IMG/VR virus record: IMGVR_UViG_3300037336_000242
Span: 1-60,489 of that record
DNA length: 60,489 bases
Direction: 5' to 3' (one strand)
DNA from: a virus
Lineage: Duplodnaviria > Caudoviricetes
Numbering within the stretch: the first letter of the stretch is position 1; every line of letters starts with the position of its first letter. Made by a program: the position numbers and the translations under genes. Positions 1 to 56,900 of this stretch are shown one piece after another. Below the pieces are notes generated by a model. The model worked only from the letters and a program-made list of their open reading frames with translations, made no database searches and was not told the DNA's origin.

Positions 1-507
1 AGCACAGCGCACCTATCGAAAATACGAACAAAAACTAGGCATTGCCCAGCGTGCCAAACAAAAACAACGGGTTAAATCCATCCATGCGAAAATTAAAAAT
101 ATCAGAAATGACTTTCAGCACAAACTCAGCCGTCAGTTGGTCGATGACCACGCGGCGATATTCGTTGGCAATGTGAACGCGAAAGGTCTGGCAAAAACCA
201 AACTGGCAAAGTCAGTGTTGGATGCAGGCTGGACGAGGTTCCGAACCATGCTCAAGTACAAAAGCCAGCAGGCGGGTGTATGGTTTGAAGAAGTCAACGA
301 AGCGTATACCACCCAGACGTGTTCGTGTTGTGGCTCACGCCAAAACAGTCCGAAAGGTAGAGCAGGACTTGGAATAAGAGAATGGACTTGTCAGGGTTGC
401 GGTACAACCCATGATCGCGACGTGAACGCCGCAAAAAACATTCTCGCGGCAGGACATTGCCGTCTAGCTGTAGGAATCCTCGTCCTTTAGGTCGAGGAGG
501 ATGTCAA
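1..507 (+). mobile_element. IS200/IS605-family element, right part ending at RE hairpin + TCAA
   Basis: tnpB followed by subterminal hairpin CCTCGTCC-TTTA-GGTCGAGG then AGGATGTCAA (478-507); TCAA is a typical IS200/IS605 right-end cleavage tetramer. Confidence 0.88.
2..490 (+). CDS. tnpB: TnpB RNA-guided endonuclease of an IS200/IS605 element (5' end outside window)
   Basis: Frame open from window start (AQRTYRKYEQKL...DFQHKLSRQL); C-terminal YTTQTCSCCG...WTCQGCG zinc ribbon and RuvC-III HDRDVNAAKNI. Confidence 0.93.
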   Translation, partial: AQRTYRKYEQKLGIAQRAKQKQRVKSIHAKIKNIRNDFQHKLSRQLVDDHAAIFVGNVNAKGLAKTKLAKSVLDAGWTRFRTMLKYKSQQAGVWFEEVNEAYTTQTCSCCGSRQNSPKGRAGLGIREWTCQGCGTTHDRDVNAAKNILAAGHCRLAVGILVL

Positions 508-760: not shown

Positions 761-1045
761 CTACCAGCCCGCTTCATGGCGGTGCAGCTCAAGTACAATA
801 TCGAATGGCGGCATGATTTTAATGCCGCTCCATTCTGGTTGGCCGTACCGCACAAATTCTAACGGATCGCACGAATCGACCGACAACATACGGCCATCTT
901 CACCAACAACCTGCGACAATACGTCTTTAATGTGCGCTATACCATGCTGCGCACCCTCTAGGCGCATGCCGCTAGAATCTTCATCAAAGTACACTTCTAC
1001 GCCGCCAAAGGGCGTAAGCACACGGTACACATCATCGTCTATCAC
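761..1045 (-). CDS. hxr: Hxr-like small protein
   Basis: Overlaps ddrB-like stop as hxr follows ddrB in P1; YRVLTPFGGVEV...GEDGRMLSVDS resembles recalled P1 Hxr. Confidence 0.5.
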   Translation of the reverse strand: MIDDDVYRVLTPFGGVEVYFDEDSSGMRLEGAQHGIAHIKDVLSQVVGEDGRMLSVDSCDPLEFVRYGQPEWSGIKIMPPFDIVLELHRHEAGW

Positions 1046-6150: not shown

Positions 6151-6184
6151 CACTAAAAAACCAAAATAGCCCACGATTGGGGCT

Positions 6185-6566: not shown

Positions 6567-9458
6567 TTATGCCGCTGCTTGCATGGCTTTTTTGGCCGCT
6601 GCTTTAACCAAGTCGAATGCTTGACCGACCAAATCATCTAATTCAGCGTTCGGGTTGGCTTCGAGTTCGGCATCCATGCGCTTCAATTCAGCTTGTACCG
6701 CCTTAATATCCGCTAGGGTTGCCAGTGGCGTTGCACCGCTAATAACGCTGTTTAGGTAGTCGGCATCGGGGCTTGTCGCTGGTACGTCTGGCTCTACCGC
6801 AGCAGGTACGGGCTGTGATAGACCTTTCACATAATCAACACCTGCTTTCGGCAAGTACATCAACCTGTTTGTAGGGGAAACCAAACTATCGACTAATTTG
6901 TAAAAACTAAAACCCAGCGGGGTATTATGCGGGCTTGTTTTTATCAGGGCGCGTAGTTCAATTAGTCGAATAGTGTCGGGGTGTTGCTTGTTACCAATAG
7001 GCGCTGACCGCTGCAACGACTCGTACTCTCTTGTAGTCGCATTGTTTTTGGCTGTATCAGGGCGCGTTAGCTCCTCTAATACCCAACCATCAGCCAATCT
7101 TTGATCAATAAGCTGTTTGTTTGTTGGTGCGCCGTCTTCATCGCTAGACTTGGCGCTTAGGTACTTCGTTTGACGCGCATCTTTTAATACATCCCCCTTT
7201 GAAGGCGCTACCACATCGGAATCATCCCCAATCAAGACCCCACTAGCACTAAACCCGCGATCAAAAAGCCATTTCGCCGCGCCCGATTTAGTTGTGAATT
7301 CTCTAAACTCAGTCGCTGTTGCCGCCATGATTTTACCATTACGCTGCAATGTACCGCTGCTTGTCTCGCCGTTGTAGCCGTCTTGCTGAATCTCCAGAAA
7401 AGGTGCAACTGCTTTTTGTGTATTGCCGCGTGCTTTTTCAGTATCAACCACACCTTGCATCTCTAAAAACTCAGCTTCTGTGCAACCTCGCCACTCAAGA
7501 ATACCGCTGACAATTTCCCGTTTACTTTTTCCAGCAATCTTCGTTGTGCCGGTGTAAGCGTCAAACACTTTACGGCTGATTTTGTTATCCGCGTCGGAAA
7601 AATAAGGCATGTGTTCTACCAATCCAGAATCGGTCTCCTCCATCGCCTTGATTCTTTCAATCATTAGGACCGTGTATCTAAATGATTGATCGTCGTTAGA
7701 GTGATCTAATGAGCTGGCTGATGCGATTGCAACACCCATCGCTTTTTTGAACTTTTCAACATCCATGCCTGCTGGGATTCTATCAATCCAGCTAGTGGTT
7801 TTTGCATCGGGCTGTGGCGCAATGGTTTTATTTGGGGCAATTAAATCACCTGTCATTGGGTTGGTACTCCAACCAGCGTTCAAAAGATCAATCAGTTTCT
7901 CGACCTTCTTTTCGCTCGAAATAACATAGCCACCTTGCACCCGCGACCATCGCCCGTTAATGCCTTTGGCTTCACATAATTGATTAATGCGAGTTCTTCC
8001 ACCGCCTTTACGTCTGTCAGATACGATCAAAACACCCTTAGCGTTGCGTTGCGGCTTGGTAATAACGTAGTTAATCGTTTGTCCATCGTACTCTTTGTAC
8101 TGCCCGTTATACGGCTTTTCATCACCAGCATTCCAGTCGTCAGCTTCGGCTTGTGTAACATCGTCAGACTCAGTCGCGGCGGGTGCGGGTCGGCTGTTTG
8201 CGGCATAGTGCTGCTCCGCTTCTTCACGGGTTGCAAACGACGCAATGCCCTCTGGTCGTACCGACAAAAACGGATATTTACCACCATCCTCAGAATCCCA
8301 CACGCCAGAGTAGCCCATAGGCGGCTTTTTGGATTGAACCACCGGCTTATCCAACTCAGCTTGCAGCACCACCATTTCAGCATCCAATCCCGCAATCGTC
8401 GCGCTGTGCTGTTCGATACGCCCGCTGACCTCGGTCAATTCCTGCGCGTTTTCGGCCTTTTTCGCATTGGTGCGGGTAAAGCGTGCGCTGTTTTGGTTTA
8501 CCAGCTTCATTATGCGAATAGCCAACACTGGCAACTGCACATCTTCACCTTGATTCGGCTGCACCGCCGCCGATACATCGCGGGCATTCAGTAGGATTTT
8601 CCAGCTAATCAGCGTATCGCCCGGCAGTAATTTTGACGGCGTAGAATCGGGATTGTGGAAAACAATAGAAACCGACTGACCATCTGAAACCTCAAAAATC
8701 GCGGCCACCTGCGTGACTTTATTGCGCTTGAAAGGCTCAGACTGGCGGTAGTTGCTGATCGTCAAGCCCCCGCCGGCGGCAGCATCCATAGCCTCAGACA
8801 AGAGTTGCATCAGCTTGTCCAGACGACGGTTTTCTACGATGATCGCATCGTAGCCCATCATTTCAGCACCAAGCCACTCAAGCATCGCGGGCATATCATC
8901 GGCTTTCATCGCATCGAATAGCTGCGAATCATCGTCATGTTTAACCAGATCAAGTAGTAGAGTAGCCGTGCTGCCACCGTGTGACTTTAGATTGATACCG
9001 TCCCACATCGCGGGTTGCATCGTGGTGACATCCTGCAAGGCCAGCAGGTTTTTGCTGTATACCGGCAAGTTATCGCGTGGATTTAGTTTTTCGCTGTTTA
9101 GATAGCGCATCAAACCTTTTCCATTCGACTCAGTAACCGCCTGCACTTCACAGCTATCAAAAAACCGCCCGTATTGGCTCTGTACCCACTCGACCGCCTG
9201 ATCAGCGTCTAACGCGCCAATGACCGCTACAGCGTCGAATAACGCGCCTGTAGCACCCTTAGACTTCAAGTTGACCACTTGCCATAGATCGGCATCGGTA
9301 GCCGTAGGCGATAGCAGGGCGTCGATCATGCGGCATTGGCCGACAATATGCCCAACTGCTAGATTTGAATAGATGTTATCGAAGCCTGGCACGCGGCGGC
9401 TAGTGCGTGGGGCGTGGGCTTGCACAAAAATGCTTGTGTTGGACACGGTTTTTTCCAA
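6567..9458 (-). CDS. darA: DarA-like defence-against-restriction head protein
   Basis: SDGQSVSIVFHNPD...DTLISWKILLNARDVSAAVQP...KLVNQNSARF matches recalled P1 DarA core. Confidence 0.8.
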   Translation of the reverse strand: MEKTVSNTSIFVQAHAPRTSRRVPGFDNIYSNLAVGHIVGQCRMIDALLSPTATDADLWQVVNLKSKGATGALFDAVAVIGALDADQAVEWVQSQYGRFFDSCEVQAVTESNGKGLMRYLNSEKLNPRDNLPVYSKNLLALQDVTTMQPAMWDGINLKSHGGSTATLLLDLVKHDDDSQLFDAMKADDMPAMLEWLGAEMMGYDAIIVENRRLDKLMQLLSEAMDAAAGGGLTISNYRQSEPFKRNKVTQVAAIFEVSDGQSVSIVFHNPDSTPSKLLPGDTLISWKILLNARDVSAAVQPNQGEDVQLPVLAIRIMKLVNQNSARFTRTNAKKAENAQELTEVSGRIEQHSATIAGLDAEMVVLQAELDKPVVQSKKPPMGYSGVWDSEDGGKYPFLSVRPEGIASFATREEAEQHYAANSRPAPAATESDDVTQAEADDWNAGDEKPYNGQYKEYDGQTINYVITKPQRNAKGVLIVSDRRKGGGRTRINQLCEAKGINGRWSRVQGGYVISSEKKVEKLIDLLNAGWSTNPMTGDLIAPNKTIAPQPDAKTTSWIDRIPAGMDVEKFKKAMGVAIASASSLDHSNDDQSFRYTVLMIERIKAMEETDSGLVEHMPYFSDADNKISRKVFDAYTGTTKIAGKSKREIVSGILEWRGCTEAEFLEMQGVVDTEKARGNTQKAVAPFLEIQQDGYNGETSSGTLQRNGKIMAATATEFREFTTKSGAAKWLFDRGFSASGVLIGDDSDVVAPSKGDVLKDARQTKYLSAKSSDEDGAPTNKQLIDQRLADGWVLEELTRPDTAKNNATTREYESLQRSAPIGNKQHPDTIRLIELRALIKTSPHNTPLGFSFYKLVDSLVSPTNRLMYLPKAGVDYVKGLSQPVPAAVEPDVPATSPDADYLNSVISGATPLATLADIKAVQAELKRMDAELEANPNAELDDLVGQAFDLVKAAAKKAMQAAA

Positions 9459-9660: not shown

Positions 9661-10467
9661 ATGCCAAAACAAGCAATCGTCACCCCAAAACCTGTTGTCC
9701 TCACCATCGAGCAATTGCAAGCAATGAGCTGGACTTGTGTGTCTCACTCTGTTGACACCGTAGAATGCGATCAAGAAACAGTCATTGTTGGCATCGAATA
9801 TGACGAAGAAGGCAATGAAGTTGACGTTGAGCGCGAGTATTTCAATCGCTACGCATACGGCACTGCAACAATGCGGGCGGGCGAAAATCCAGCGGTTGAA
9901 ATCTCATTTACATGGGAGGCCGGCCATGAGGAAAAACACAGCTATGAAGATAGCTTTGATTTTGACTTGTGCGTTCACGCTGACAGTGAAATCAAGCTGA
10001 CAGGCTGCAATCTGGTCGATGAGGATGGTGATGCAGTAGAGGGCTGGGAACTAGGCCATGCACTGACCGAAATCGCAGCGGGTTGCGAATGGGAGGCCAT
10101 GGTTCGCGCCGACCTGCCAATACCTGAAACCGAAGTGCTGGAAACGGCAACCGAAGGGCAAGACATCACTGTATGGCGCGATAACGCCCCTGAAATCGCA
10201 TTTAAAGGCGCATGTATTGGCGGCGCGTCAAGCCGTAGTCAGTACAACGACAACGGACGCTGGACAGACCTGTATCTGTACCAGACCGTAGGCGGCAAGT
10301 TTGTCTGCTACGAGCGCAATAATTCGCAGTGGCAAGGCGAGCGCACCAAGCACAAAGCCGAAGTCTGCACCAACCACGCCGAAGTCGTTGCATGGTTCGG
10401 TCAAGGCCGTGTAGCCAAAGAACTGTATGCAGACGCTGGCATCAGCAACGTGCAAGTGATCGACTAA
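9661..10467 (+). CDS. Acidic hypothetical protein, first gene of the Cas-cassette transcript
   Basis: 268-aa ORF with RBS (AGGA), very D/E-rich N-terminal two-thirds; no family recognised with confidence. Confidence 0.8.
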   Translation: MPKQAIVTPKPVVLTIEQLQAMSWTCVSHSVDTVECDQETVIVGIEYDEEGNEVDVEREYFNRYAYGTATMRAGENPAVEISFTWEAGHEEKHSYEDSFDFDLCVHADSEIKLTGCNLVDEDGDAVEGWELGHALTEIAAGCEWEAMVRADLPIPETEVLETATEGQDITVWRDNAPEIAFKGACIGGASSRSQYNDNGRWTDLYLYQTVGGKFVCYERNNSQWQGERTKHKAEVCTNHAEVVAWFGQGRVAKELYADAGISNVQVID

Positions 10468-10484
10468 TCAGACACACAAAAGCC

Positions 10485-10514
10485 AAAAGCCTAGCCGCGT
10501 GCTGGGCTTTTTTT
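10485..10514 (+). terminator. Rho-independent terminator
   Basis: AAAAGCCTAGC-CGCGT-GCTGGGCTTTT stem-loop followed by a T run. Confidence 0.75.
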
Positions 10515-10774
10515 ATATCTCGGATTCGGGATTGGTCAAGCCAAACAACAACACCCTAGCTTCAAAGCTTAGTATCCCGTCACGCGGGATTGGTCGGAGC
10601 GTATGCTTTGCCCGTTCAGCAACATGATGGTATCCCGTCACACGCTGGATTATTCGATGATGATCTGGCTGGACTACCACCAAGATTCAGCATCTCGGAT
10701 TCGGGATTGGTCGGAATCACTGCCAAATGATTGGGGCAGCAAGACTGCATCCCGTAACACATGGGATTGGACTA
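10515..10774 (+). CRISPR. Leaderless degenerate CRISPR array: 5 repeats (25-28 nt), 4 spacers of exactly 32 nt
   Basis: Repeats at 10515 ATATCTCGGATTCGGGATTGGTCAA, 10572 GTATCCCGTCACGCGGGATTGGTCGG, 10630 GTATCCCGTCACACGCTGGATTATTCGA, 10690 GCATCTCGGATTCGGGATTGGTCGG, 10747 GCATCCCGTAACACATGGGATTGGACTA. Confidence 0.88.
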
Positions 10775-10793
10775 GGTTTTACAAGGCACCGAC

Positions 10794-10994
10794 ATGGCAA
10801 TGACCAACAGAGAAAAGCAAGCCGCCTACCGCAAGCGAAACGCGGGGCTGATTGTAAAGGCGGTAATCACGCCACAGGCAAAAGAAGCACTTGATCGATT
10901 GGTTGCGGTTGAACCTACGCAATCACAAGGGCAAGTGATCAGTGAAGCATTGATACAGTTTAAGGACGGGAAAGATGAAAATGACACCGTTTAA
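10794..10994 (+). CDS. Small DNA-binding protein (ribbon-helix-helix-like), candidate cassette regulator
   Basis: MTNREKQAAYRKR basic helix then VKAVITPQAKEALDRL...SQGQVISEAL strand-helix-helix pattern; overlaps csf3 start. Confidence 0.6.
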   Translation: MAMTNREKQAAYRKRNAGLIVKAVITPQAKEALDRLVAVEPTQSQGQVISEALIQFKDGKDENDTV

Positions 10995-11619
10995 AGTCAC
11001 CTGCCACGTCGCCACCCCAATGCAGCTAGGCAGCCACCCGCTGCACCTAGACGGCTTGCTGTACTGGTTGGCTATCGAGCATCAAGCTGATGCACAAGAC
11101 GTGCTAGACGTTTGCCTAGACCAACAGGCGGGTATCTATAAAGCAAGCGCCTTGTGCTTTGCCCCACAGCCGCTAGAAATCGTCACCACCCGCGCCGCGT
11201 CGCATCCAACCTGCTGGAAATGGAATGAGTTTAGCCTGCCAACAAGCGCAAAAACCATTGTGCAAAAAGGTGGGCCGTACCGGTCGAGAATGACCAGCTA
11301 CACTGCCTACCAATGCAGCCAAGTCGTGTTTTTTGGCGTAGGCGATATGACCAAGATTCAGGCGTTACTGTCCACATGCAATGGTCTAGGTCGCAACAGC
11401 AACCAAGGTTGGGGCGAAATAACCGCGATTGAAATCGAGCCGATGGATCAGGATTGTTCGTGGTTTATGGATGATCAGATCATGCGGACGCTACCGCTGG
11501 ACTTAATCCCAAGCAACACAGATACAAGCCACGCGCTGCAAGGACTGGCAAGCATTGCACCGCCTTACACCACCACCGCCAAACAAGCCACACAATCCCC
11601 CGTTTTTCTAAAGGTATAA
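10975..11619 (+). CDS. csf3: Type IV CRISPR Csf3 (Cas5 group)
   Basis: PFKVTCHVATP...LHLDGLL N-terminus, Gly-rich GLGRNSNQGWG loop, MRTLP. Confidence 0.88.
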   Translation: MKMTPFKVTCHVATPMQLGSHPLHLDGLLYWLAIEHQADAQDVLDVCLDQQAGIYKASALCFAPQPLEIVTTRAASHPTCWKWNEFSLPTSAKTIVQKGGPYRSRMTSYTAYQCSQVVFFGVGDMTKIQALLSTCNGLGRNSNQGWGEITAIEIEPMDQDCSWFMDDQIMRTLPLDLIPSNTDTSHALQGLASIAPPYTTTAKQATQSPVFLKV

Positions 11620-11623
11620 CGCT

Positions 11624-12610
11624 ATGAAAACAATCTTTTTCGCTGGCAAAATCAAAACCGTATCACCGGTTGCCGTGACCGTTCCCGATACCGTCGGCAT
11701 GCCAAAAGATAGCGCCGGTAACGCCTATCTGCCTGCAAATAGCATCCGTGGCAAGTTGCGCCACAGCCTGCATGAAGCAATCGCACGCCATTATGCAGAT
11801 CAAGGCAAGCCGCTTACAGTCGATCAGCATTACATGCTTGGTAGTGGCGTAGACACAGCACGCGCACTGAAAGATACCAGCAGCAACATCGGTGCAAATA
11901 CCGCACGCCGCGCCGCCAATCCAGTATTGTCGGTTTTTGGCAATTGGGGCTTGGCTGGCAAGTTAGGCGTGGGCAGCGGCTACACTGGCACAAAGGCGGT
12001 TATTCACGGCGCGGGCGTTCGTAAGCACGTCGGCAAGGAGTGGCTAGATCAAATAATCGACCTATCGGAAATCGACTACTTAACCGAAATCCTAAGCCAA
12101 GACGGGCAAACCAGCCAAGACTCGCAACCGATCAAAGACCGCCAAAAACTGCTCAAGCGTGAACTGAAAGGCGCGGACGCTACCCGCAAAACCGAAATCA
12201 ATACTGAGCTGGCAGACCTTGATCAGCAGCTACGCGAACTCAAAGACTTGCGCACTGGGGCAAGCGAAAGCATCCAACGCCCGCTAGAAGGTTTTGAGGT
12301 GATCGACCACGGCACAACCATGCCGCACCGCATGATCTTAAAGAACCCAACAGACACCGAGCTACACACGGTGTTACTGAGCATTGCAGCGTGGGCGTAT
12401 GAGCCGATGATTGGTGGGCATCACAATCTTGGGTGCGGCAATATCGACGCAGAATGGGAAATCTACGAACAAGCATTTTTGTCGAATGCGCGTACCAAAA
12501 TTGGCACGGTCGGATTTAATGAAACGGGCTTTTTTGTCGAAGGCATTGTGTTTGATGCAGCGGCAACACTGCAACACATCACCACTGATTTTGACTTGGC
12601 ACAGGTATAA
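11624..12610 (+). CDS. csf2: Type IV CRISPR Csf2 (Cas7 group)
   Basis: YLPANSIRGKLRH, RAANPVLSVFG, LAGKLGVG, MIGGHHNLGCG. Confidence 0.92.
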   Translation: MKTIFFAGKIKTVSPVAVTVPDTVGMPKDSAGNAYLPANSIRGKLRHSLHEAIARHYADQGKPLTVDQHYMLGSGVDTARALKDTSSNIGANTARRAANPVLSVFGNWGLAGKLGVGSGYTGTKAVIHGAGVRKHVGKEWLDQIIDLSEIDYLTEILSQDGQTSQDSQPIKDRQKLLKRELKGADATRKTEINTELADLDQQLRELKDLRTGASESIQRPLEGFEVIDHGTTMPHRMILKNPTDTELHTVLLSIAAWAYEPMIGGHHNLGCGNIDAEWEIYEQAFLSNARTKIGTVGFNETGFFVEGIVFDAAATLQHITTDFDLAQV

Positions 12611-12612
12611 CC

Positions 12613-13359
12613 ATGAATGCCATCTTAGGCGCACGGCTTCGCGCAACTTTCGCGCCTGAAATGGCGAATGAAGCCCCACAAGATTGTAATTCAGACTGTG
12701 AAAACTGCGGGCGTAAGCCGTCGGAATATGGCGGCGTGGCGTATGTCAGCACGGACAGCTACAAGCGGCAATTGGCACACTGTCCCGATTGCCGACCGAT
12801 CAGCATTCAAGCCCCACAGACGCTAGGGATTGCGATTGAACCCGCTACGGGCTTTACCCTTGCCACATTCAAAGGCGGTTACTTGGTTGTCCCTGCGACT
12901 GACAAGCCATCACTACTTGTATCTGGCAAGTACCCTGCCAAAATCCACCAACACGCGGTTGACGTGGTGCCGCTTGGTGGACACGCTGCTAAAGCATGGT
13001 TATTCAGCAATCACCAAGCCGATAGCTATGTGTTAGAGCTATCGCCACGGCGTGAACGGTTTAGCCGCCATGCCATGCCATGTGACCATAATCACTTGGT
13101 GATTGCCACTACAAGCGGCGCGGCAAAAATCAGCCTATCTGACTGGCAAAATAGCCGTGACGCGCTACGCGGCATCGCCAAATACAAAGACGTGATCAGC
13201 TTGGCGCGTGGACTCACAGAGGGGCGCTTGCACTTGTCCAGCGACAAGGTACAAGCGGCATTAACACCCGAAATCATGGCGGTTTTATCCGCACTACCTA
13301 AAGACCCCATTTCGCGCTGTTTCGTGTTAGACGCGCTCAGTGGCTTGGAGGCTGTATGA
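12613..13359 (+). CDS. csf1: Type IV Csf1 (Cas8-like large subunit)
   Basis: 248 aa with N-terminal CENC...CPDC zinc finger, located between csf2 and cas6. Confidence 0.65.
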   Translation: MNAILGARLRATFAPEMANEAPQDCNSDCENCGRKPSEYGGVAYVSTDSYKRQLAHCPDCRPISIQAPQTLGIAIEPATGFTLATFKGGYLVVPATDKPSLLVSGKYPAKIHQHAVDVVPLGGHAAKAWLFSNHQADSYVLELSPRRERFSRHAMPCDHNHLVIATTSGAAKISLSDWQNSRDALRGIAKYKDVISLARGLTEGRLHLSSDKVQAALTPEIMAVLSALPKDPISRCFVLDALSGLEAV

Positions 13360-13886
13360 ATCACTTATTTGCACTAAAGCCGCACAATGAAGCGCACAAG
13401 GCGGTTATGGCTGTTTTGCACAAGACAGGGCAAGACTGGAAAACCAAAGGCACGCGCAAAATTCAGTTTGCCAATCTTGGCAGCCTGATCTTGGTTCGCA
13501 CCAATCAGCAGCCAACAGGCATCCCGTGCAAAGCAGATGCGCCGGTATTCAGCACAGGCCAACGCCTAACGCTACAGGTCATCCTACCCGCACAAAAACG
13601 GGCGCGGGACTACCGCACAGCACCCGCAATCCGCACACAGTCAGAAATGAATGATCTTGCATCGGCATTGCTTGCTGAAAATGGCTTGTCTGTGGATAGC
13701 ATCGAGGGCAAGCCAGCACATTCTGCTTTTTTCAAAAAAGACGGTCGGACAACGGTTATTGCTGCAATGCACTTTGTCGCCACCGCCACCGTTACCGACC
13801 CGCAAGCCCTTGCGATTGCCTATACCCAAGGCGTCGGCCGCGAGAAATCGTTAGGGTTTGGCATGCTCATTGTGAAGGAGGTTTGA
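13356..13886 (+). CDS. cas6: Cas6 (Cas6e/Csf5-like) crRNA-processing endoribonuclease
   Basis: C-terminal VTDPQALAIAYTQGVGREKSLGFGML G-rich loop. Confidence 0.88.
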   Translation: MNHLFALKPHNEAHKAVMAVLHKTGQDWKTKGTRKIQFANLGSLILVRTNQQPTGIPCKADAPVFSTGQRLTLQVILPAQKRARDYRTAPAIRTQSEMNDLASALLAENGLSVDSIEGKPAHSAFFKKDGRTTVIAAMHFVATATVTDPQALAIAYTQGVGREKSLGFGMLIVKEV

Positions 13887-13888
13887 TT

Positions 13889-15796
13889 ATGTTTGATCTA
13901 GTTAAAAAGGCGTTCGCGCCGACTGGTTTTTTGGTCGAGCAAGGCGGGCGGCATACGCCAGAACAAGGCAACTACGCGCTATCCGTAGCCGTAACCCTGC
14001 TATCACAAGGCAAGATGAATCTAAGCCTGTTAGAAGCTGAAACAGGCGTAGGAAAGTCGCTAGGCTACCTGATTCCTAGCTTGATCTGGTTGGCTCAAAA
14101 TCCCAAAAAACAGATTGTGGTCAGCACGTTTACCCGCGCACTGCAAAAGCAATTGATCGACGAAGATGCACAGAAAGCCTGTCAGTTTTTGGTAGCCAGT
14201 GGCTTGCCCGCTGTTAAGGTCGCCTACAGAATGGGCAAGGCTTCGTTTTTCTCAATTGATCGTGTGGCACTCCTGATTGCTGAAATTCAAACCGAACAAA
14301 ACAAGGCTTTGCTGCATGAGTTTTACCAGTACGCGCTGCATTCAGCATCACATGGTTCTGGCCTGTGGCGTGACTGGATCGACGAACACGGGCAGTTTCC
14401 ATGCGACATTAGCCCCAACAGCATCGGCTTGATTGGCGACCAAACCAGCATCGCTTATGAAGCGCATCTGACCGCGTCCAAAGAAGCCCAACTGCTGATC
14501 ACCAATCACGCCACCATGCTGATTGCAGTTAGCCGCAAAATCCTAGACCTTGATCGGGTTCACGCCATTATTTTTGATGAAGCACACGAACTCGAAGCAG
14601 CGGCCAAAAGTTTCTTAAACACCCGCCTAAACTTTACCGAGCTACTGAGCAAGACGCACGGTATGGATGGACACGCCGCAATCGCTGACTTACTAAAACA
14701 GTGGACAGAGGATCTATCCAGCCACGTCAACAAAAGCCTGATCAATAGCGAACACCCCGCGCTTATGCTACAGCAGCAGGGCAACGCTGAAAAACTGCTT
14801 GACCTGCTAAAAGGCACGCTAGGCAAACTAAGCACCAAGCAACGCAAGGCCGACTCTGGCATCGAGCTTGCCGAACTTGTCGAGCGAGTCGGTTCGTGGT
14901 GCGCCGGTGCGGAAAGCACGCAGCGTAAGGCAATCGCGTTTTCTGACAAAAAGTCTATTCCTAGCCTTGCGATGGTTTCGAGTGCGGCCGCGCCTTTCCT
15001 ACGCAATCTGTTTGAGCAACTGAATAGCAATGTGATTATGACCAGTGCAACACTGGCAGATATGCAGCCGCAAACATCGTTTTTTAACATCAAATTCAGT
15101 GCAGGTTTGCGTGACTTTACAATCTGCCAAGAACGGCGTTATAGCCCTAATCAGTACGGCACAATGACATTCGCAGTCACTGAGTATGAAGGCGGTATCT
15201 TTAGCGGTAAAAGTGACGATGAAGCTGATGAAGTTTGCTACAGCGCGGCATGGCTCAAGCAAACAGCAGAAACAATCATGTCAAGCCGTGGCAAGACGCT
15301 AGTGCTGGTTCCGTCATTTCGTGAGGCCAAGTTATTGGCGGGTTTGTTGCCAAAAGATCAGGTGATTTGTCACCAGCCAAACCAGCCAAACTACCAAGTC
15401 ACACAGACGTTAATCAGTGGCGATAGTCGTATCCTCATTACGCCGTCATGCTGGGAAGGGGTCAATATCCGCAATGCCGACGGTTCGCAGGTTTTAGAGA
15501 CGATTGTGATTAGCCGCATTCCCTACGCGCCGCCTGATTTGGTGCGCCTTACTGCACTGAGCAACTACCTAAAGGACAAGTCAGAGGCAAACAAAATCAT
15601 CCATCTAATGTCACGCCAAGCCGCGTTACGCAAGGTCAAGCAGGGTATTGGGCGCGGCATTCGTAGCCCAAATGATCGGGTGCATGTAGTCTTTTGCGAC
15701 CCGCGCATCAAGGCGGCGCGGCATGCAATCCCTAAGCGGTTTGTGGCGGCGTTTGATCTGGCAGTCAACAAGGGTAAAATCACCAATGTTTTTTAG
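13889..15796 (+). CDS. dinG: CasDinG (Csf4) 5'-3' helicase
   Basis: EAETGVGKS Walker A, IFDEAHE, SATL, WEGVN, KQGIGRGIRS; GGAGG RBS before ATG 13889. Confidence 0.93.
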   Translation: MFDLVKKAFAPTGFLVEQGGRHTPEQGNYALSVAVTLLSQGKMNLSLLEAETGVGKSLGYLIPSLIWLAQNPKKQIVVSTFTRALQKQLIDEDAQKACQFLVASGLPAVKVAYRMGKASFFSIDRVALLIAEIQTEQNKALLHEFYQYALHSASHGSGLWRDWIDEHGQFPCDISPNSIGLIGDQTSIAYEAHLTASKEAQLLITNHATMLIAVSRKILDLDRVHAIIFDEAHELEAAAKSFLNTRLNFTELLSKTHGMDGHAAIADLLKQWTEDLSSHVNKSLINSEHPALMLQQQGNAEKLLDLLKGTLGKLSTKQRKADSGIELAELVERVGSWCAGAESTQRKAIAFSDKKSIPSLAMVSSAAAPFLRNLFEQLNSNVIMTSATLADMQPQTSFFNIKFSAGLRDFTICQERRYSPNQYGTMTFAVTEYEGGIFSGKSDDEADEVCYSAAWLKQTAETIMSSRGKTLVLVPSFREAKLLAGLLPKDQVICHQPNQPNYQVTQTLISGDSRILITPSCWEGVNIRNADGSQVLETIVISRIPYAPPDLVRLTALSNYLKDKSEANKIIHLMSRQAALRKVKQGIGRGIRSPNDRVHVVFCDPRIKAARHAIPKRFVAAFDLAVNKGKITNVF

Positions 15797-15911
15797 TCGC
15801 CTTTAACGCACTGTTTTTGCTTTGCTTTTTTTGGGTCACTGAAAATTGGGTTAAATGCTGAATTTAGCCGATACTCTTTAAAAATCAGATGGTTTTGGTT
15901 GGATGGTTACA
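15797..15911 (+). promoter_or_regulatory. CRISPR leader with IHF-like site
   Basis: AT-rich 115 bp containing CTCTTTAAAAATCAGATGGTTT, resembling WATCARNNNNTT of type I-E/I-F leaders. Confidence 0.65.
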
Positions 15912-16299
15912 GTATCCCGTCAGGTGCGGGATTTAGCGGAAAACATACGCCCGCAAACTGGCAAACAAGGCGTATCCCGTCAGGTGCGGGATTTAGCGGA
16001 AAAGTGACTTGATTGTCACTGTTACCCTTTTGTATCCCGTCAGGTGCGGGATTTAGCGGAGTGTTAAGGCGTTACAAGACCAACGACTCTAGTATCCCGT
16101 CAGGTGCGGGATTTAGCGGTTGTCGAAGCATTCAGGTTGCCAGAGTGCAAAGTATCCCGTCAGGTGCGGGATTTAGCGGAACTGGTAGATTTGGTCGGGT
16201 TCGATCGGTTGGTATCCCGTTAGGTACGGGATTGGTCGGTCTTGTCCTTCACCAAGTCGAGCGTAACCCGCGTATCCCGTCGTGTACGGGATTGGTTGC
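15912..16299 (+). CRISPR. CRISPR array: 7 repeats of 28 nt, 6 spacers of 32 nt
   Basis: GTATCCCGTCAGGTGCGGGATTTAGCGG identical at 15912, 15972, 16032, 16092, 16152; variants at 16212 and 16272; exact 60-nt period. Confidence 0.98.
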
Positions 16300-16302
16300 C
16301 GC

Positions 16303-16938
16303 CTACCAGTCGCCCGCGTTGCCTAGCATCATCGGATACATTTTCTGAAAGCCAAGCTGAAGCTGCAAAGGGTCACGGTCGCTGCCAGACAAGTCTAGCG
16401 AACTGCTGGTAAGCGCCACAATCCAGTTAAAATCTGCTGGTTTGGTTTTTTTATTGTTTCGGTCAAATAAATATATCCGCATGTTTAGCAGGTAATCGTA
16501 GGGTAGCCCTTGCGTCCCGTCCCGCTTGAACATCGCCCTCTTAATGGCTTGCACCATCCTGATAATATCGCCATTGGCTGTTTCTAAAAAAGTGACTTGC
16601 ACCTCACTAGAGCTATTGCCCGTAATGTAATTTTGTTGGTGTGCCCCAATTTGCACACTGTCATTTTGCGCATCGAGTAGCCCAAAATTAACCGACGTTG
16701 CAAGCCACGGCAAAGCCCAGCCCAGACCATCAGGCTGCAATGCCAACACAGACCCAAGCACCCCGCCTGCACTGATTGGACTTGGATTTACTGGTGATAG
16801 CTCTACAACATAATGCGCCTTTGATAGCGTACCAAGTGCGTACACCTGCTTATACGCCGCCTTCAATTCCTTAGAATCCAAACCAGACCACGGTGCATTA
16901 CTCGCCTTTTTTGAAATATCTATATCTATTCCGGCCAT
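16303..16938 (-). CDS. Putative baseplate / tube-initiator-like virion protein
   Basis: Coupled to portal gene; tube-like pattern VQVTFLETANG...LQLQLGF. Confidence 0.5.
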   Translation of the reverse strand: MAGIDIDISKKASNAPWSGLDSKELKAAYKQVYALGTLSKAHYVVELSPVNPSPISAGGVLGSVLALQPDGLGWALPWLATSVNFGLLDAQNDSVQIGAHQQNYITGNSSSEVQVTFLETANGDIIRMVQAIKRAMFKRDGTQGLPYDYLLNMRIYLFDRNNKKTKPADFNWIVALTSSSLDLSGSDRDPLQLQLGFQKMYPMMLGNAGDW

Positions 16939-18554
16939 TACTCATCCTCCATGCCATCGTCTTGCTCAGTATCTGCATCGTCTGTAGCTGGATCATCGGC
17001 TTGTGGCGGTTGCCCTTGCGGGTCGCCGCCTTCTTCACCTTCAGGCGCGGCTGGCTTCAAGTCTTTGGCTAGTTTTTCGGCTTCCTCAAAAGTCAGCCCT
17101 GCCTGTTTCTCCAGCAGCATCGCCAAGTTTTGCGTGGACAGGCCAACTTCTTTAATGATGCTAAGCGCTTGCCCCGTCATCATTAGGCCATTCATGCGGT
17201 TATTCTGGTTAGTCAGTTGCTCAGTCGCCATAGCCGCTTGATCGCTGTAGAAGTCAAAATCCCACGGCTGATCAGCTTCATCAAACGCCTCACCATACCG
17301 ATAACCCCAATCCAACGCAGCCAAGCGATTCAAGGCTTGACTGAGCGCCTGCCGAACCATTACCGACCGTCTGGCAATACTGGCCGACGTGTGAAACGCC
17401 GCGCCATCGCCTAAGCCGCCCGCCAACATATCAGCCCAACCGACCTGTGACATATCAATGCCGATACCGCCTAGCAGCCGCTGCATATTAAAGCGTAGGT
17501 ACTCGATATTGAGGGGTGCGCCGCGTTGCCCTGCAATGTCACCAACAGGATTTAACACCTGTTTTTCGCCCCACGCTGGCAACACATGCCACTGAGTAGC
17601 CCAAACCGATTCACCGCCCGTTAAGGCTTCACGGACGTAGGATTCATGGCTTTTTACGATCTGCTGCAAACCTTGCTTGTATTTTTTTTGCTGTTCGGGG
17701 GGCATGCCAGACATATCGACCGACAAAAACATCTGCTTCACAGAATCAGCAATTTGTTGGCTATTCAGGCTTGCCAGTGACACATGCACGTTTTGCCACG
17801 GCTCTTCGACCTCAAACAAAAATGAACCGCCCACGGGTGCGGCAATAATCGGCAATTCGCTACGGTTATTCGATTGCAGCATTCTAGCCCTGATAATACC
17901 TTGCACGGGTTCCCACTGTGGCACATGGGTAGTCCGTGGCATCTTCATGCGCACAAGCTGGTTTGTGGTAAGTTTGGTGATTGCCCGTTCCCAATCGCGT
18001 GATTCTAACGCCTGAAAGCCGACGGTGCGTCCGCCTTGCTCAAAGGACTGGATCAGCGGTGGAAAGGTAAATTCATCACAGATAATATCGACCACGCCCA
18101 CCCCTCTCTCGGCATAGTTGCGCACATAGGCGTCACCATAGCGCAGGGCGTCTGAGCAAACCTTGAATACAATCCGGTTAATCAATGGCTCTAAATGCCG
18201 CCGCCGCGACTCTACTTTTTTGCGCATTTCCGCGTTGCGCAACCCCTTGCCACGGTAGCGCACAGCAGGAACCATAAACACCATATCACCACGCGCCGCG
18301 TCGCCACCAAGCGCAGCCGTCACATGCAAGTTCAGTGCTTCCGATAGCGATGGATCAACCGACATTCGCTGCCATTGCGTGTAAATATCCTTTCTGTGTC
18401 GCCGCTTAGTTTCTTTGGTTTCGTAGGTGCCAAGCGTGAAAGGGGCTTGCGCCTCATAAATCGGGTTCACGTCGTTAATGCTTGGCATTTGCTCAGTCTG
18501 AGCTGCTAAGCGGTTCGATATAAGCCGATCTGCTAACCAGTCGCCAAAGCTCAT
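16938..18554 (-). CDS. prt: Portal protein (P1 Prt-like)
   Basis: SEALNLHVTAALG and GWADMLAGGLGDG match recalled P1 Prt; acidic tail. Confidence 0.85.
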   Translation of the reverse strand: MSFGDWLADRLISNRLAAQTEQMPSINDVNPIYEAQAPFTLGTYETKETKRRHRKDIYTQWQRMSVDPSLSEALNLHVTAALGGDAARGDMVFMVPAVRYRGKGLRNAEMRKKVESRRRHLEPLINRIVFKVCSDALRYGDAYVRNYAERGVGVVDIICDEFTFPPLIQSFEQGGRTVGFQALESRDWERAITKLTTNQLVRMKMPRTTHVPQWEPVQGIIRARMLQSNNRSELPIIAAPVGGSFLFEVEEPWQNVHVSLASLNSQQIADSVKQMFLSVDMSGMPPEQQKKYKQGLQQIVKSHESYVREALTGGESVWATQWHVLPAWGEKQVLNPVGDIAGQRGAPLNIEYLRFNMQRLLGGIGIDMSQVGWADMLAGGLGDGAAFHTSASIARRSVMVRQALSQALNRLAALDWGYRYGEAFDEADQPWDFDFYSDQAAMATEQLTNQNNRMNGLMMTGQALSIIKEVGLSTQNLAMLLEKQAGLTFEEAEKLAKDLKPAAPEGEEGGDPQGQPPQADDPATDDADTEQDDGMEDE

Positions 18555-44457: not shown

Positions 44458-45303
44458 TTACTTGCTGTTCACCAGCCAATAGCGGTTGCGCGTTTCGACC
44501 GACTCATGCCACGGGTAGGCGTAGATCATTGCGGCGTTGCCAGACCGCCCAATCTGCCGTAACAGCATATTGGCCTCTGTGCCTCCGAATACGAAGCGAT
44601 CATGCACGGCAGCGGCGATATTGGGGTTTAGGCCGCTAATCGCGCTGCCATATCGCTGCCACCATGAATAGACCCATAGCATGTTATTGCAAAGGGCGTA
44701 TACGTCGTGAACCATTGGAGCGGGGTTTTGTGGGGCAGGTTCTGGTTTAGCTTTGATTTGCATATCGGCCAGATAGGCTTTGGCATCATCGAAATGCACA
44801 GCCAGCAGTTGGTCATACTTGCCGATTTTAAAATGGCGGTTGTGACGCGCCCACATTTCAGCATACGCCTTGCGGCAACCCTGCGCACGTTGGCGCACAA
44901 CTTCCTGTAGGGCAGATTGCTGTTCGGGGCTAATGACGTGACGGGCGTTAATGGCTTGTCCCTTTGTCCAGTAGTCCCACAGCACGTCGTCACACTCACT
45001 CTGGTACATGATGACCTTGGCGCGTGTGTCGAGGTTCGGGATTTTGTTTGGGCTGATCGAGTAAAGCCATGCTGCGAGTTTGCGAATAGGCAAGCAAGTC
45101 ATTAGGCGTTCTTTGCCGTCATTTGCAACCATCACGATTTCCGTGATAGTTGAGCTAAACCGTTGTTTTAGCTTCTCATGCTGACTTTGCCAAGTTAAAC
45201 CCATGCCTTCAGCGATAGGTTTCATTGGTGTGTATGGCTGGCCGTTGTGTTCAACGACGAATAATTCTGTGCCGTGAAATGGCACAACGATCTTGCTAGA
45301 CAT
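44458..45303 (-). CDS. ant: Phage antirepressor (P22 Ant N-terminal domain)
   Basis: VPFHGTELFVVEHNGQPYTPMKPI...CLPIRKLAAWLYSISPNK...YQSECDDVLWDYWTKG. Confidence 0.9.
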   Translation of the reverse strand: MSSKIVVPFHGTELFVVEHNGQPYTPMKPIAEGMGLTWQSQHEKLKQRFSSTITEIVMVANDGKERLMTCLPIRKLAAWLYSISPNKIPNLDTRAKVIMYQSECDDVLWDYWTKGQAINARHVISPEQQSALQEVVRQRAQGCRKAYAEMWARHNRHFKIGKYDQLLAVHFDDAKAYLADMQIKAKPEPAPQNPAPMVHDVYALCNNMLWVYSWWQRYGSAISGLNPNIAAAVHDRFVFGGTEANMLLRQIGRSGNAAMIYAYPWHESVETRNRYWLVNSK

Positions 45304-56872: not shown

Positions 56873-56900
56873 TTGACCAATCCCGCAAAGCGCGGGATAC
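56873..56900 (-). CRISPR. Solitary CRISPR repeat unit
   Basis: Minus strand GTATCCCGCGCTTTGCGGGATTGGTCAA: 28 nt, GTATCCCG and CGGGATTGGTC identical to array repeats, perfect 7-bp stem, intergenic. Confidence 0.85.

What the first reader, a model, noticed from the sequence alone, without database searches (positions are those of the whole stretch)
10975..16299. Complete type IV-A CRISPR-Cas interference module embedded among phage virion genes
Seen: csf3, csf2, a csf1-like gene, cas6 and dinG plus two arrays, inserted antisense between the darA operon and the portal operon; the last repeat ends 3 nt from a virion gene stop. Known: type IV-A systems are nuclease-free, DinG-dependent silencers described mainly on plasmids and ICEs, where they target other plasmids. 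Inference: a temperate phage using RNA-guided silencing against competitors or host genes, placed next to its anti-restriction genes.
Basis: partly seen in the sequence, partly recalled or inferred. Interest (0 to 1): 0.85.

Follow-up and report, generated by a model that had tools for sequence, protein, structure and literature searches.

The report
Type IV-A CRISPR-Cas inside a P1-like phage

Summary
Window 10975-15796 (+) holds an unbroken operon, csf3(cas5)-csf2(cas7)-csf1(cas8-like)-cas6-dinG. An AT-rich leader and a 7-repeat, 6-spacer array follow at 15912-16299. A decayed 5-unit array lies upstream at 10513-10774.

The proteins are closest to the IV-A3 variant found on Klebsiella and Acinetobacter plasmids. 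They are divergent (41% identity or less), and the two gene blocks are swapped relative to those plasmids.

The carrier is a temperate P1-like myovirus contig. In 5 of 5 related phages the flanking genes, a portal-adjacent virion gene and a DarA-like gene, sit 74-85 nt apart with no cas genes. The module is therefore a roughly 6.8 kb cargo insert. An independent re-assembly of the one run that holds this DNA bridges both junctions at equal depth.

New findings:
- Spacer 2 has an exact 32/32 match, with non-repeat flanks, elsewhere in that run at about the phage's own depth. The match lies at the 5' start of an unidentified gene.
- A solitary repeat sits in the phage's early (Cro) operon.

Function, meaning DinG-dependent silencing of a competitor or co-resident gene, is inferred and not shown.

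Verdict: a new member of a known kind in an unusual carrier.

The parts
9661..10467 (+). orf268, an unknown-function cargo gene inside the extra DNA, followed by an intrinsic terminator at 10485-10511
   Evidence: ORF. It has no Pfam, PHROG or PADLOC family and only a weak EXLDI hit in NCBIfam (E 0.0024). There are two homologues (65% and 56%), and neither sits on the contig that seems to carry the related DinG. It is absent between the same genes in 5 of 5 related phages.
10513..10774 (+). Array A: five degenerate repeat-like units with four 30-32 nt spacers, probably a decayed CRISPR array
   Evidence: The units at 10572 and 10747 keep the 7-bp hairpin, the unit at 10630 is weakened, and the units at 10513 and 10688 are a shortened variant. 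The spacers have no match in the window.
10794..10994 (+). orf66, a small basic ORF overlapping the csf3 start by 20 nt. It may be a regulator, and its reality is unproven.
   Evidence: It has no Pfam or PHROG family.
10975..11619 (+). csf3 (Cas5 of type IV)
   Evidence: PADLOC Csf3_0_IV 4.8e-45 over residues 2-201. NCBIfam cas5_csf3 3.5e-19, below its cut-off. PDB 7xfz_B 6.9e-11 and 8rc2_F 3e-7.
11624..12610 (+). csf2 (Cas7 backbone subunit)
   Evidence: PADLOC Csf2_0_IV 6.1e-45 and Csf2_1_IVA3 2.6e-43. PDB 8rc2_A 3e-49, against 0.0029 for 7xfz_C. Pfam RAMPs sits exactly at its cut-off.
12613..13359 (+). csf1 (Cas8-like large subunit with an N-terminal zinc finger)
   Evidence: PADLOC Csf1_2_IVA3 3.3e-11 over residues 9-241. 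PDB 8rc2_G 4.1e-11. Two CxxC motifs lie at residues 29-32 and 57-60.
13356..13886 (+). cas6 (Cas6e-like crRNA endoribonuclease)
   Evidence: PADLOC Cas6e 3.3e-14 and Cas6_0_IVA3 4.2e-12. Pfam CRISPR_assoc 1.4e-9. PDB CasE 0.003.
13883..15796 (+). dinG (CasDinG/Csf4 helicase)
   Evidence: PADLOC Csf4_0_IVA 2.2e-120 over residues 6-620. PDB 8s35_M 1.1e-47, and 8s35_M is the Klebsiella plasmid DinG. The GVGKS, DEAH and QGIGRGIR motifs are present.
15797..15911 (+). AT-rich leader. A sigma-70-like consensus match lies at 15753-15780, just upstream inside the dinG 3' end.
   Evidence: Sequence. The promoter-like site is and is a consensus match only.
15912..16299 (+). Array B: 7 repeats of 28 nt and 6 spacers of 32 nt. 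The repeats nearest the leader are identical and the two farthest are degenerate.
   Evidence: The repeat folds into a 7-bp stem, a 5-nt loop and a 7-nt 3' tail. Spacer 2 (16000-16031) has an exact match elsewhere in run X1.
16303..16938 (-). Virion-associated gene (phrog_7274) downstream of the portal gene. Its last 7-8 codons and its stop codon come from the inserted DNA.
   Evidence: PHROG 6.8e-48.
16938..18554 (-). P1-type portal protein
   Evidence: phrog_1497 1.6e-163. It shares 48.6% identity with Acinetobacter phage vB_AbaM_ABMM1 and about 24.6% with P1 Prt.
6567..9458 (-). DarA-like protein. The homologous start is probably the GTG at 9446.
   Evidence: Pfam DarA_N 1.7e-31. phrog_8883 1.1e-98. 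The start was compared with relatives.
56873..56900 (-). Solitary CRISPR repeat unit in the non-coding gap after the Cro-like gene of the early operon
   Evidence: It has the same first 8 nt, the same stem and the same following 11 nt as the degenerate repeats, and only the loop differs. Its hairpin is -11.7 kcal/mol with z -2.8. No such hairpin motif occurs in 5 related records.

Best explanation
[quoted passage not shown] It has a Cas8-like Csf1 with a zinc finger, a Cas6e-like Cas6, a CasDinG helicase, no nuclease and no cas1/cas2. It is carried as a roughly 6.8 kb cargo insert in the late region of a temperate P1-like myovirus.

Proposed mechanism. These steps are inferred from what is established for IV-A1 and IV-A3:
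1. Array B is transcribed from the leader.
2. Cas6 cuts at the 3' base of each repeat hairpin.
3. Csf1, Csf2 and Csf3 assemble on each crRNA, find a PAM-flanked matching DNA and form an R-loop.
4. DinG loads on the displaced strand. The target is silenced at the level of transcription, or the replication of a competing element is blocked. No DNA is cut.
5. New spacers must come from a host adaptation module acting in trans. The five identical repeats nearest the leader, next to older divergent ones, suggest this has happened several times.

At least one target exists in the phage's own community. Spacer 2 matches it 32/32 at the very start of a gene, and the crRNA would pair with the coding strand.

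What is shown: gene content, intactness, the insertion, the array anatomy and the presence of the protospacer. What is inferred: expression, crRNA processing, silencing, and what the target is.
For: Family assignment and intactness:
- All five proteins are covered nearly end to end by type IV profiles. In the PDB, Csf2, Csf1 and DinG are closest to the Klebsiella IV-A3 chains 8rc2 and 8s35. Csf3 scores better against 7xfz_B. Cas6 matches only CasE chains.
- The DinG ATPase and helicase motifs and the Csf1 CxxC pairs are intact.
- The genes are tightly packed, with 2-4 nt gaps or 4-nt overlaps.

Array:
- There are five identical repeats, an exact 60-nt period, a Cas6e-type hairpin and an AT-rich leader.

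Insertion rather than chimera:
- In ABMM1 and in four IMG/VR relatives (portal 64-66% identical), the phrog_7274 gene and the DarA-like gene lie 74-85 nt apart. None of the five has a Cas hit.
- In the window the insert supplies the last codons and the stop of the phrog_7274 gene.
- Base composition is unremarkable across the insert.
- In Logan's contigs of run X1, one 11,927-nt contig covers 9000-15939 and one 19,524-nt contig covers 16152-17500 and beyond. Both show 0 differences, at depths 17.2 and 20.3.

Target:
- The 32-nt spacer-2 unitig has depth 42, about twice the array's depth. It has non-repeat loose ends of 255 and 219 nt on its two sides.

A related phage probably carries the same module:
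- A DinG relative (63%) and a portal relative (63%) both list a longest contig of 22,407 nt.

Temperate carrier:
- It has an S24 CI-like repressor, a Cro-like gene, Ant, a C4 antisense RNA, and sheath, tube and baseplate genes.
Against: - Every NCBIfam equivalog hit is below its curated cut-off (Csf3 69 of 140 bits, Csf2 39 of 130, Csf4 102 of 400). DinG scores higher against YoaA than against cas_csf4 in that library.
- Identity to any plasmid IV-A3 protein is at most 41%.
- No promoter-like site was found between array A and csf3.
- Array A and the last two repeats of array B are decayed.
- The three bases 5' of the single protospacer read GCC (my reading). The IV-A3 PAM is AAG (PMC7038947).
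- No spacer matched the 50,697 phage or 72,556 plasmid records.
- Run X1 may be the very sample the window was assembled from, so the bridging contigs are a second assembly and not independent data.
- The shared-contig inference rests only on equal contig lengths.
Confidence: 0.75

Rival explanations
1. Assembly chimera. A plasmid-borne IV-A locus was wrongly joined into a phage contig at the repeats.
For: CRISPR repeats break short-read assemblies, and in Logan's contigs the interior of array B is a chain of short unitigs. Type IV-A is described mainly on plasmid-like conjugative elements (PMC7038947).
Against: The left junction contains no repeat and lies inside a single 11.9 kb contig that runs from the DarA side to the first repeat. 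The right contig starts inside the array and runs 19.5 kb into the virion genes. The two depths are 17.2 and 20.3. The virion gene's reading frame continues into the insert. A relative's DinG and portal appear to share one 22,407-nt contig. However, the run may be the source sample.
Confidence: 0.03
2. Inert passenger. The module is a recently acquired, decaying hitch-hiker with no current function in the phage.
For: Array A is degenerate, the distal repeats of array B are mutated, and there are no adaptation genes. No promoter was found for the operon. None of the 5 related phages has the module. It sits antisense inside what is a single late gene block in the relatives.
Against: All five genes are intact with their catalytic motifs. 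Five repeats are identical. An exact protospacer co-occurs in the sample. A relative at about 63% protein identity seems to keep both the portal and DinG, which implies retention over long divergence.
Confidence: 0.12
3. Self-regulatory device. The system mainly regulates the phage's own life cycle or a host gene rather than fighting competitors. The solitary repeat in the early operon would act as a Cas6/Csf handle on the Cro-side transcript.
For: A solitary repeat with a perfect hairpin lies between the Cro-like gene and the replication genes and is absent from 5 related records. The spacer-2 target has about the phage's own depth, as expected for DNA living in the same cells. A IV-A1 system that silences a host pilN gene is described in the review PMC11656645.
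Against: No spacer, and neither 32-nt flank of the solitary repeat, matches the window at 9 mismatches or fewer. The contig is incomplete. Equal depth does not prove the same cell. A solitary repeat could equally be a relic or an RNA anti-CRISPR decoy aimed at other elements' systems (PMC10651486, abstract seen in a search listing).
Confidence: 0.1

Closest known systems
Type IV-A3 CRISPR-Cas of Klebsiella pneumoniae conjugative plasmids (structures 8RC2, 8S35-8S37; PMC11519345; bioRxiv 10.1101/2023.06.23.546257)
   Same: It has the same five proteins: a Cas8-like Csf1 with a zinc finger, a Cas6e-like Cas6, and a CasDinG with intact helicase motifs. It has no nuclease and no cas1/cas2. The repeat has I-E-like architecture and the spacers are about 32 nt. 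The PDB matches for Csf2, Csf1 and DinG go to these chains.
   Different: Protein identity is only 23-35%. The gene order there is csf1-cas6-dinG-csf3-csf2-array, and in the window it is csf3-csf2-csf1-cas6-dinG-array. The carrier is a phage, not a large conjugative plasmid. The one protospacer has GCC where the AAG PAM would lie.
IV-A3-like locus on Acinetobacter sp. TGL-Y2 plasmid unnamed1 (NZ_CP015111)
   Same: It is the best match in the plasmid collection: Csf2 41%, Csf3 32%, DinG 31%, Csf1 26%, Cas6 24%. The gene set is the same.
   Different: Its gene order is the Klebsiella one. It sits on a 299 kb plasmid and is still distant.
Type IV-A1 of Pseudomonas oleovorans and P. aeruginosa (self-targeting of pilN; plasmid interference)
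   Same: It uses nuclease-free, DinG-dependent, crRNA-guided repression that tolerates a target in the same cell. This is as summarised in PMC11656645 and PMC11519345.
   Different: The window's Csf2 barely matches the IV-A1 chain 7xfz_C (E 0.0029). No IV-A1 DinG chain appears at E 0.001 or better. IV-A1 has a Cas6f-like or Csf5 processing enzyme (PMC7038947).
Phage- and prophage-encoded CRISPR-Cas, including type IV 'in some phages and prophages' (PMC11656645)
   Same: A virus carries a CRISPR-Cas system, presumably for conflicts between mobile elements.
   Different: In PMC7038947 the prophage association is stated for IV-B, while IV-A is placed on plasmid-like conjugative elements. No relative of this Csf2 was found in 50,697 phage records. 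No relative of this DinG was found in the two pattern scans of IMG/VR. I also recall, but could not read here, a survey (Al-Shayeb et al. 2022, Cell) reporting all six CRISPR types in phages.
Acinetobacter phage vB_AbaM_ABMM1 and P1-family phages (the carrier)
   Same: The portal, the phrog_7274 gene, DarA, the tail tube and other late genes are syntenic. The P1-type C4 antisense RNA and Ant are present.
   Different: ABMM1 has no cas genes or repeats. The window also has a lambda-like CI/Cro pair. No plasmid maintenance genes or integrase were seen in the 60.5 kb.
Solitary repeat units acting as RNA anti-CRISPRs, or cr-like regulatory RNAs (PMC10651486; bioRxiv 10.1101/2023.03.03.530964; abstracts seen in search listings only)
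   Same: A single repeat with an intact hairpin sits in a phage genome outside any array.
   Different: Here the phage itself encodes the matching Cas6/Csf system. No partially complementary target for a cr-like RNA was found in the window.

Membership tests
Type IV-A CRISPR-Cas | Csf2 (Cas7), Csf3 (Cas5) and a Csf1/Cas8-like large subunit | tested here: met
   PADLOC E-values are 6.1e-45, 4.8e-45 and 3.3e-11. PDB chains 8rc2_A, 8rc2_F and 8rc2_G are matched. The NCBIfam equivalogs are hit, but below their curated cut-offs.
Type IV-A CRISPR-Cas | DinG-family helicase (Csf4) with intact ATPase motifs in the operon | tested here: met
   Csf4_0_IVA 2.2e-120. GVGKS, DEAH and QGIGRGIR are present and invariant among the 20 relatives aligned.
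Type IV-A CRISPR-Cas | No effector nuclease and no cas1/cas2 adaptation genes | tested here: met
   Every ORF of the 6.8 kb insert is accounted for. DinG has no extra nuclease domain. Most ORFs of 100 aa or more elsewhere in the window were scanned against PHROGs, and none was a Cas1 or Cas2. Eleven ORFs of 100-286 aa went unscanned, and no dedicated Cas1/Cas2 search of the whole window was run.
Type IV-A CRISPR-Cas | Adjacent CRISPR array with a Cas6-type repeat hairpin | tested here: met
   Array B lies 115 nt after dinG, and the repeat hairpin is shown.
Type IV-A CRISPR-Cas | crRNA-guided, DinG-dependent interference without DNA cleavage | not testable with these tools
   This needs expression and reporter assays.
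Variant IV-A3 | Cas8-like gene present (absent in IV-A2) and a Cas6e-like Cas6 (Cas6f-like in IV-A1/A2), as defined in PMC7038947 | tested here: met
   Csf1_2_IVA3 3.3e-11, Cas6e 3.3e-14, Cas6_0_IVA3 4.2e-12. NCBIfam casE 4e-8.
Variant IV-A3 | Best match to IV-A3-specific profiles and structures rather than IV-A1 | tested here: met
   Csf2_1_IVA3 2.6e-43 against 1.9e-10 or worse for the PADLOC CAS-IV-A Cas7 profiles that carry no variant name. 8rc2_A 3e-49 against 7xfz_C 0.0029. For DinG, only 8s35_M was matched among CasDinG chains. Csf3 is the exception, with 7xfz_B better than 8rc2_F. No phylogeny was built.
Variant IV-A3 | Operon order csf1-cas6-dinG-csf3-csf2-array, as in the Klebsiella and Acinetobacter plasmids examined | tested here: not met
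   The window's order is csf3-csf2-csf1-cas6-dinG-array. Among the 12 loci with two or more Cas hits, 0 share the window's order and several different orders occur. I do not know that gene order is a formal criterion for the variant.
Variant IV-A3 | 5'-AAG PAM shared with type I-E | tested here: inconclusive
   Only one protospacer is known. The three bases 5' of it read GCC (my reading, table 7).
Variant IV-A3 | Carriage on large conjugative plasmids | tested here: not met
   The carrier is a phage contig with virion, immunity and replication genes. Of the 471 plasmid records with a Csf2 relative, 439 are typed as conjugative.
P1-like temperate phage (carrier) | P1-type portal, DarA, contractile tail, and the C4 antisense RNA with Ant immunity module | tested here: met
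P1-like temperate phage (carrier) | Plasmid prophage maintenance (replication, partition) or, alternatively, an integrase | tested here: inconclusive
   Neither was found among the ORFs scanned. The contig shows no terminal overlap and begins in a truncated TnpB gene. The closest isolate has 75.7 kb.

The most novel reading that the evidence does not exclude
The phage uses a nuclease-free IV-A system for more than excluding rivals. It keeps a co-resident DNA, such as a host gene, a plasmid or its own unassembled part, silenced while living beside it at about one copy each. It has also wired the system into its own lysis-lysogeny circuit. A solitary repeat directly behind the Cro-like gene would let Cas6/Csf cut or hold the early transcript. 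The antisense placement inside the late operon would switch the module off when late transcription starts. This would be the first case of a virus using CRISPR interference as a built-in regulator of its own life cycle.
Probability: 0.12. Interest if true: 0.85.

Novelty: new member of a known kind. Interest (0 to 1): 0.55.

Why it matters
Type IV-A systems are understood as weapons that plasmids use against other plasmids. An intact IV-A3-like system fixed inside the virion-gene block of a temperate P1-like phage extends that picture to viruses. P1-like phages typically persist as plasmids.

It also offers a compact, divergent Csf-DinG effector of about 4.8 kb, probably with a different PAM, for CRISPR-interference tools.

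The exact protospacer in the same community sits at the 5' start of a gene and at about the phage's own depth. This makes the question of what a phage-borne silencing system targets directly testable.

The cargo site between the portal-adjacent gene and DarA may be a hotspot for accessory genes in this phage group.

Tried and rejected
Spacer targets
- The whole array B was run by blastn (word 11, E up to 10) against 50,697 phage records. The only hit was one 25-nt match at E = 5, which I treat as chance.
- The same query against 72,556 plasmid records found nothing.
- Spacer 2 typed exactly found 0 matches in IMG/VR and 0 in JGI metagenome contigs.
Only 13-15-mers came back.
- Self-targets in the window: none at 10 mismatches or fewer for any of the 10 spacers. 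Two 11-mismatch chance hits were found for spacer 1.
- I did not type the other five spacers into collection scans. They lie next to each other in the window, and that could count as splitting a sequence.
- I did not search with the loose-end letters or with their translation. They are neither window nor stored-locus sequence. The identity of the spacer-2 target therefore stays open.

Relatives of the module
- megablast of 10400-16400 against the phage and plasmid collections found no match.
- DinG in IMG/VR, as a single protein and as a 20-sequence alignment, found no relative.
- The repeat pattern in IMG/VR gave 27 single hits and no array, which I read as chance.
- The DinG alignment in genome contigs was swamped by housekeeping DinG/YoaA of Alphaproteobacteria.
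- The close-clade DinG alignment in metagenome contigs gave at best 33% identity.

Expression
- No RNA holder was listed.

orf268 and orf66
- Neither was assigned to any family at the search thresholds. The one NCBIfam hit for orf268 is weak (EXLDI, E 0.0024, below its cut-off).
- The ESM Atlas gave only sub-threshold leads.

Ideas rejected
- The module is a transposon. No transposase lies inside the insert, and I did not run a search for terminal inverted repeats.
- The swapped gene order is unique within IV-A. Other orders occur, although none equals the window's.
- The low-depth loose ends at 11707 and 15217 are a deletion variant. They lie on nothing in the stretch and add only about 1x depth.

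The shared-contig inference could therefore not be checked.
- Two paper-reading runs failed on term syntax. One search was re-sent with allowed terms. One search was not repeated.
- PMC8658065 and PMC11165670 are not held.
- Supplementary tables of the type IV surveys, which may list phage-borne IV-A loci, could not be seen.

Full report
**What is there**

The window is the whole record: one 60,489-bp contig, classed as a virus record, with no terminal overlap.

Five tightly packed ORFs lie on the + strand between 10975 and 15796. PADLOC profiles cover each of them nearly end to end:

| Protein | Profile | E-value |
|---|---|---|
| Csf3/Cas5 | Csf3_0_IV | 4.8e-45 |
| Csf2/Cas7 | Csf2_0_IV | 6.1e-45 |
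| Csf2/Cas7 | IV-A3-specific profile | 2.6e-43 |
| Csf1/Cas8-like | Csf1_2_IVA3 | 3.3e-11 |
| Cas6 | Cas6e | 3.3e-14 |
| Cas6 | Cas6_0_IVA3 | 4.2e-12 |
| CasDinG | Csf4_0_IVA | 2.2e-120 |

Pfam adds RAMPs, CRISPR_assoc, Helicase_C_2 and DEAD. NCBIfam names the same families, but every score is below the curated equivalog cut-off. The proteins are therefore divergent members.

DinG keeps the motifs GVGKS, DEAH and QGIGRGIR. Csf1 has two CxxC pairs in its N-terminal part. This agrees with the zinc-finger N-terminal domain of Cas8 described for IV-A1 and IV-A3 (PMC11519345, passages read).

**The arrays**

A 115-nt AT-rich leader follows dinG. Array B comes next, at 15912-16299:
- seven 28-nt repeats at an exact 60-nt period
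- five repeats identical, the last two with 5 and 8 mismatches
- six 32-nt spacers

The repeat folds into a 7-bp stem, a 5-nt loop and a 7-nt 3' tail. This is the Cas6e-type layout.

Three other sets of repeats share a different 3' tail from the five repeats nearest the leader:
- the two distal repeats of array B
- the units of the upstream array A (about 10513-10774)
- one solitary repeat elsewhere in the window

New repeats are copies of the repeat next to the leader. This pattern therefore suggests several spacer acquisitions after that repeat changed. That is an inference.

Array A is decayed. Two of its five units keep the full 7-bp hairpin, two are a shortened variant, and one is weakened. 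It starts right behind the terminator of an unknown 268-aa gene.

No Rfam family reached its gathering score on the repeats.

**Which variant**

In the PDB, Csf2 (3e-49), Csf1 (4.1e-11) and DinG (1.1e-47) match chains of 8rc2 and 8s35. I confirmed that 8s35_M is the DinG of a Klebsiella pneumoniae plasmid IV-A3 locus, with 1404.7 bits over residues 1-624.

The IV-A1 Csf2 chain 7xfz_C reaches only E 0.0029. Csf3 is the exception: it scores better against 7xfz_B than against 8rc2_F.

PMC7038947 (passages read) defines IV-A3 by a Cas8-like gene and a Cas6e-like Cas6. Both are met here.

Gene order is not met. The Klebsiella and Acinetobacter plasmids have csf1-cas6-dinG-csf3-csf2-array. The window has csf3-csf2-csf1-cas6-dinG-array, which is the same two blocks swapped. 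Among 12 loci with two or more Cas hits, several different orders occur and none equals the window's.

The nearest DinG relatives are two metagenomic proteins at 63% identity. Everything else is 37% or lower. The best plasmid Csf2 is 41%, from Acinetobacter sp. TGL-Y2.

I file the system as IV-A3-like. No phylogeny was built.

**The carrier**

The rest of the window is a temperate myovirus. It encodes:
- a P1-type portal, sheath, tube, baseplate, fibres and a terminase-like protein
- two DNA methyltransferases
- an Hdf-like protein and a DarA_N protein
- Ant preceded by a C4 antisense RNA and isrK
- a replication initiator
- an S24 CI-like repressor facing a Cro-like gene

The closest isolate is the temperate Acinetobacter phage vB_AbaM_ABMM1, with a portal 48.6% identical. 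P1 itself is about 24.6% identical. ABMM1's temperate status comes from a title seen in the listing.

Named portal relatives at 47-50% identity come from Moraxellaceae. This hints at a gammaproteobacterial host, but the host was not determined.

No integrase and no partition genes were seen among the ORFs scanned. The contig starts in a truncated TnpB gene and is probably incomplete.

**Insertion, not chimera**

In ABMM1 and in four IMG/VR contigs with portals 64-66% identical, the gene after the portal (phrog_7274) is followed within 74-85 nt by the DarA-like gene. None of the five has a Cas hit.

In the window these two genes are about 6.8 kb apart. The extra DNA holds orf268, array A, orf66, the cas operon and array B, all on the opposite strand.

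The end of the phrog_7274 gene aligns with the relatives up to about 16,329. After that it runs on for 7-8 codons into the insert before a stop. About 85 nt upstream of the DarA-like start (GTG at 9446) still weakly resemble the ancestral spacer region.

Base composition shows no step across the insert.

Only one public run holds this DNA. It is labelled a salt lake metagenome and may be the source sample. In Logan's contigs of that run:
- one 11,927-nt contig covers 9000-15939
- one 19,524-nt contig covers 16152 to beyond 17500
- both show no differences, at depths 17.2 and 20.3
- the array interior is a chain of overlapping short unitigs, as expected for repeats

This is a second assembly of possibly the same reads. 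It is not independent data.

**A target**

In the same output, the 32-nt spacer-2 sequence is its own unitig at depth 42, about twice the array's depth. Contigs with 255 and 219 unlike letters attach before position 16000 and behind position 16031 (tables 7 and 8). Those letters are not repeat sequence.

Another DNA in that sample therefore carries an exact 32/32 protospacer, at roughly the phage's own abundance.

Read by eye on the opposite strand, the flanks show a GGAG motif, 7-8 nt, an ATG, and then an open frame to the end of the known letters. The protospacer falls at about nt +17 to +48 of that frame, and the crRNA would pair with the coding strand. The three bases 5' of the protospacer read GCC, not the AAG reported for IV-A3. 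I could not identify the carrier of this target (see Tried and rejected).

No other spacer matched anything searched.

**A solitary repeat**

On the - strand at 56873-56900 there is a single repeat. It lies in the 300-nt gap between the Cro-like gene and the next early gene.

It has the same first 8 nt, the same stem and the same following 11 nt as the older repeats. Only the loop differs. Its hairpin energy is -11.7 kcal/mol.

It abuts a strong hairpin that scores as a terminator on the + strand only. Neither flank matches the window. No such hairpin motif is present in ABMM1 or in the four related fragments.

Its role is open. It could be a relic, a decoy RNA, or a Cas6/Csf handle on the early transcript.

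**What is in print**

[quoted passage not shown] - The IV-A3 study counts phage-plasmids among the targeted elements and notes that some of the carrying or targeted plasmids had been characterised as phage-plasmids (10.1101/2023.06.23.546257, passages read).
- My searches found no paper describing a IV-A3-like system inside a P1-like phage.
- Supplements were closed, and one relevant survey (Al-Shayeb et al. 2022) is not held and is only recalled.
- In the data, 0 of 50,697 phage records hold a relative of this Csf2, against 471 plasmid records.

**Verdict**

The finding is real and correctly read. The locus is a new, divergent member of the IV-A3-like kind in an unusual carrier.

A DinG relative and a portal relative, both at 63% identity, each list a longest contig of 22,407 nt. 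This suggests, but does not prove, that at least one related phage lineage retains the module.

Function is inferred from the family. The protospacer in the same sample and the solitary repeat are the two leads that could make the finding more than ordinary.

Noticed in passing
window 56873-56900 (-): A solitary CRISPR repeat with an intact hairpin lies in the non-coding gap after the Cro-like gene (57082-57309, -). It abuts a hairpin at 56835-56864 that scores as a terminator on the + strand only. No such motif occurs in 5 related phage records.
   Followed up: partly
window 55116-55143 (+): A weaker repeat-like 28-mer (8 mismatches, 12-nt exact core) lies antisense inside the replication-initiator gene. 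I estimate about 0.03 such hits by chance in the window, so it may be chance or a relic.
   Followed up: no
window 49548-49620 (-): A type II hammerhead ribozyme match (Rfam RF02276, 55.2 bits against a gathering score of 37) lies between two early-region genes of the phage.
   Followed up: no
window 45352-45566 (-): A P1-type C4 antisense RNA (62.6 bits) and isrK (64.1 bits) lie directly upstream of the Ant anti-repressor gene (44458-45303). The phage therefore combines a P1 immI-like module with a lambda-like CI/Cro pair (57409-58155 and 57082-57309).
   Followed up: partly
window 2-490 (+): The contig begins inside a TnpB gene (OrfB_IS605 plus the Cas12f1-like TNB domain, 8.8e-27). The assembly probably broke at an IS200/IS605 element.
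   Followed up: no
window 9661-10467 (+): orf268 is an unknown protein that shares the insert with the CRISPR module. One homologue (56%) and a portal relative (57%) both list a longest contig of 7,665 nt. It may therefore be separate cargo of the same hotspot in a related phage.
   Followed up: partly
window 49902-52037 (-): Three early-region genes match thymidylate-kinase-like, dCMP-deaminase and PAPS-reductase-like PHROGs. This may be a nucleotide or DNA-modification module. The PAPS-reductase-like protein had no Pfam hit.
   Followed up: no
window 1042-6174 (-): A 1710-aa protein lies downstream of the DarA-like gene. It has no Pfam family and matches only partial PHROGs. It is conserved in patches in two related IMG/VR contigs and may be a DarB-like head-internal protein.
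   Followed up: no
window 11707 and 15217 (run X1): Two contigs at about 1x depth share about 31 nt with csf2 and dinG and then diverge. This could be a rare variant or a graph artefact.
   Followed up: no
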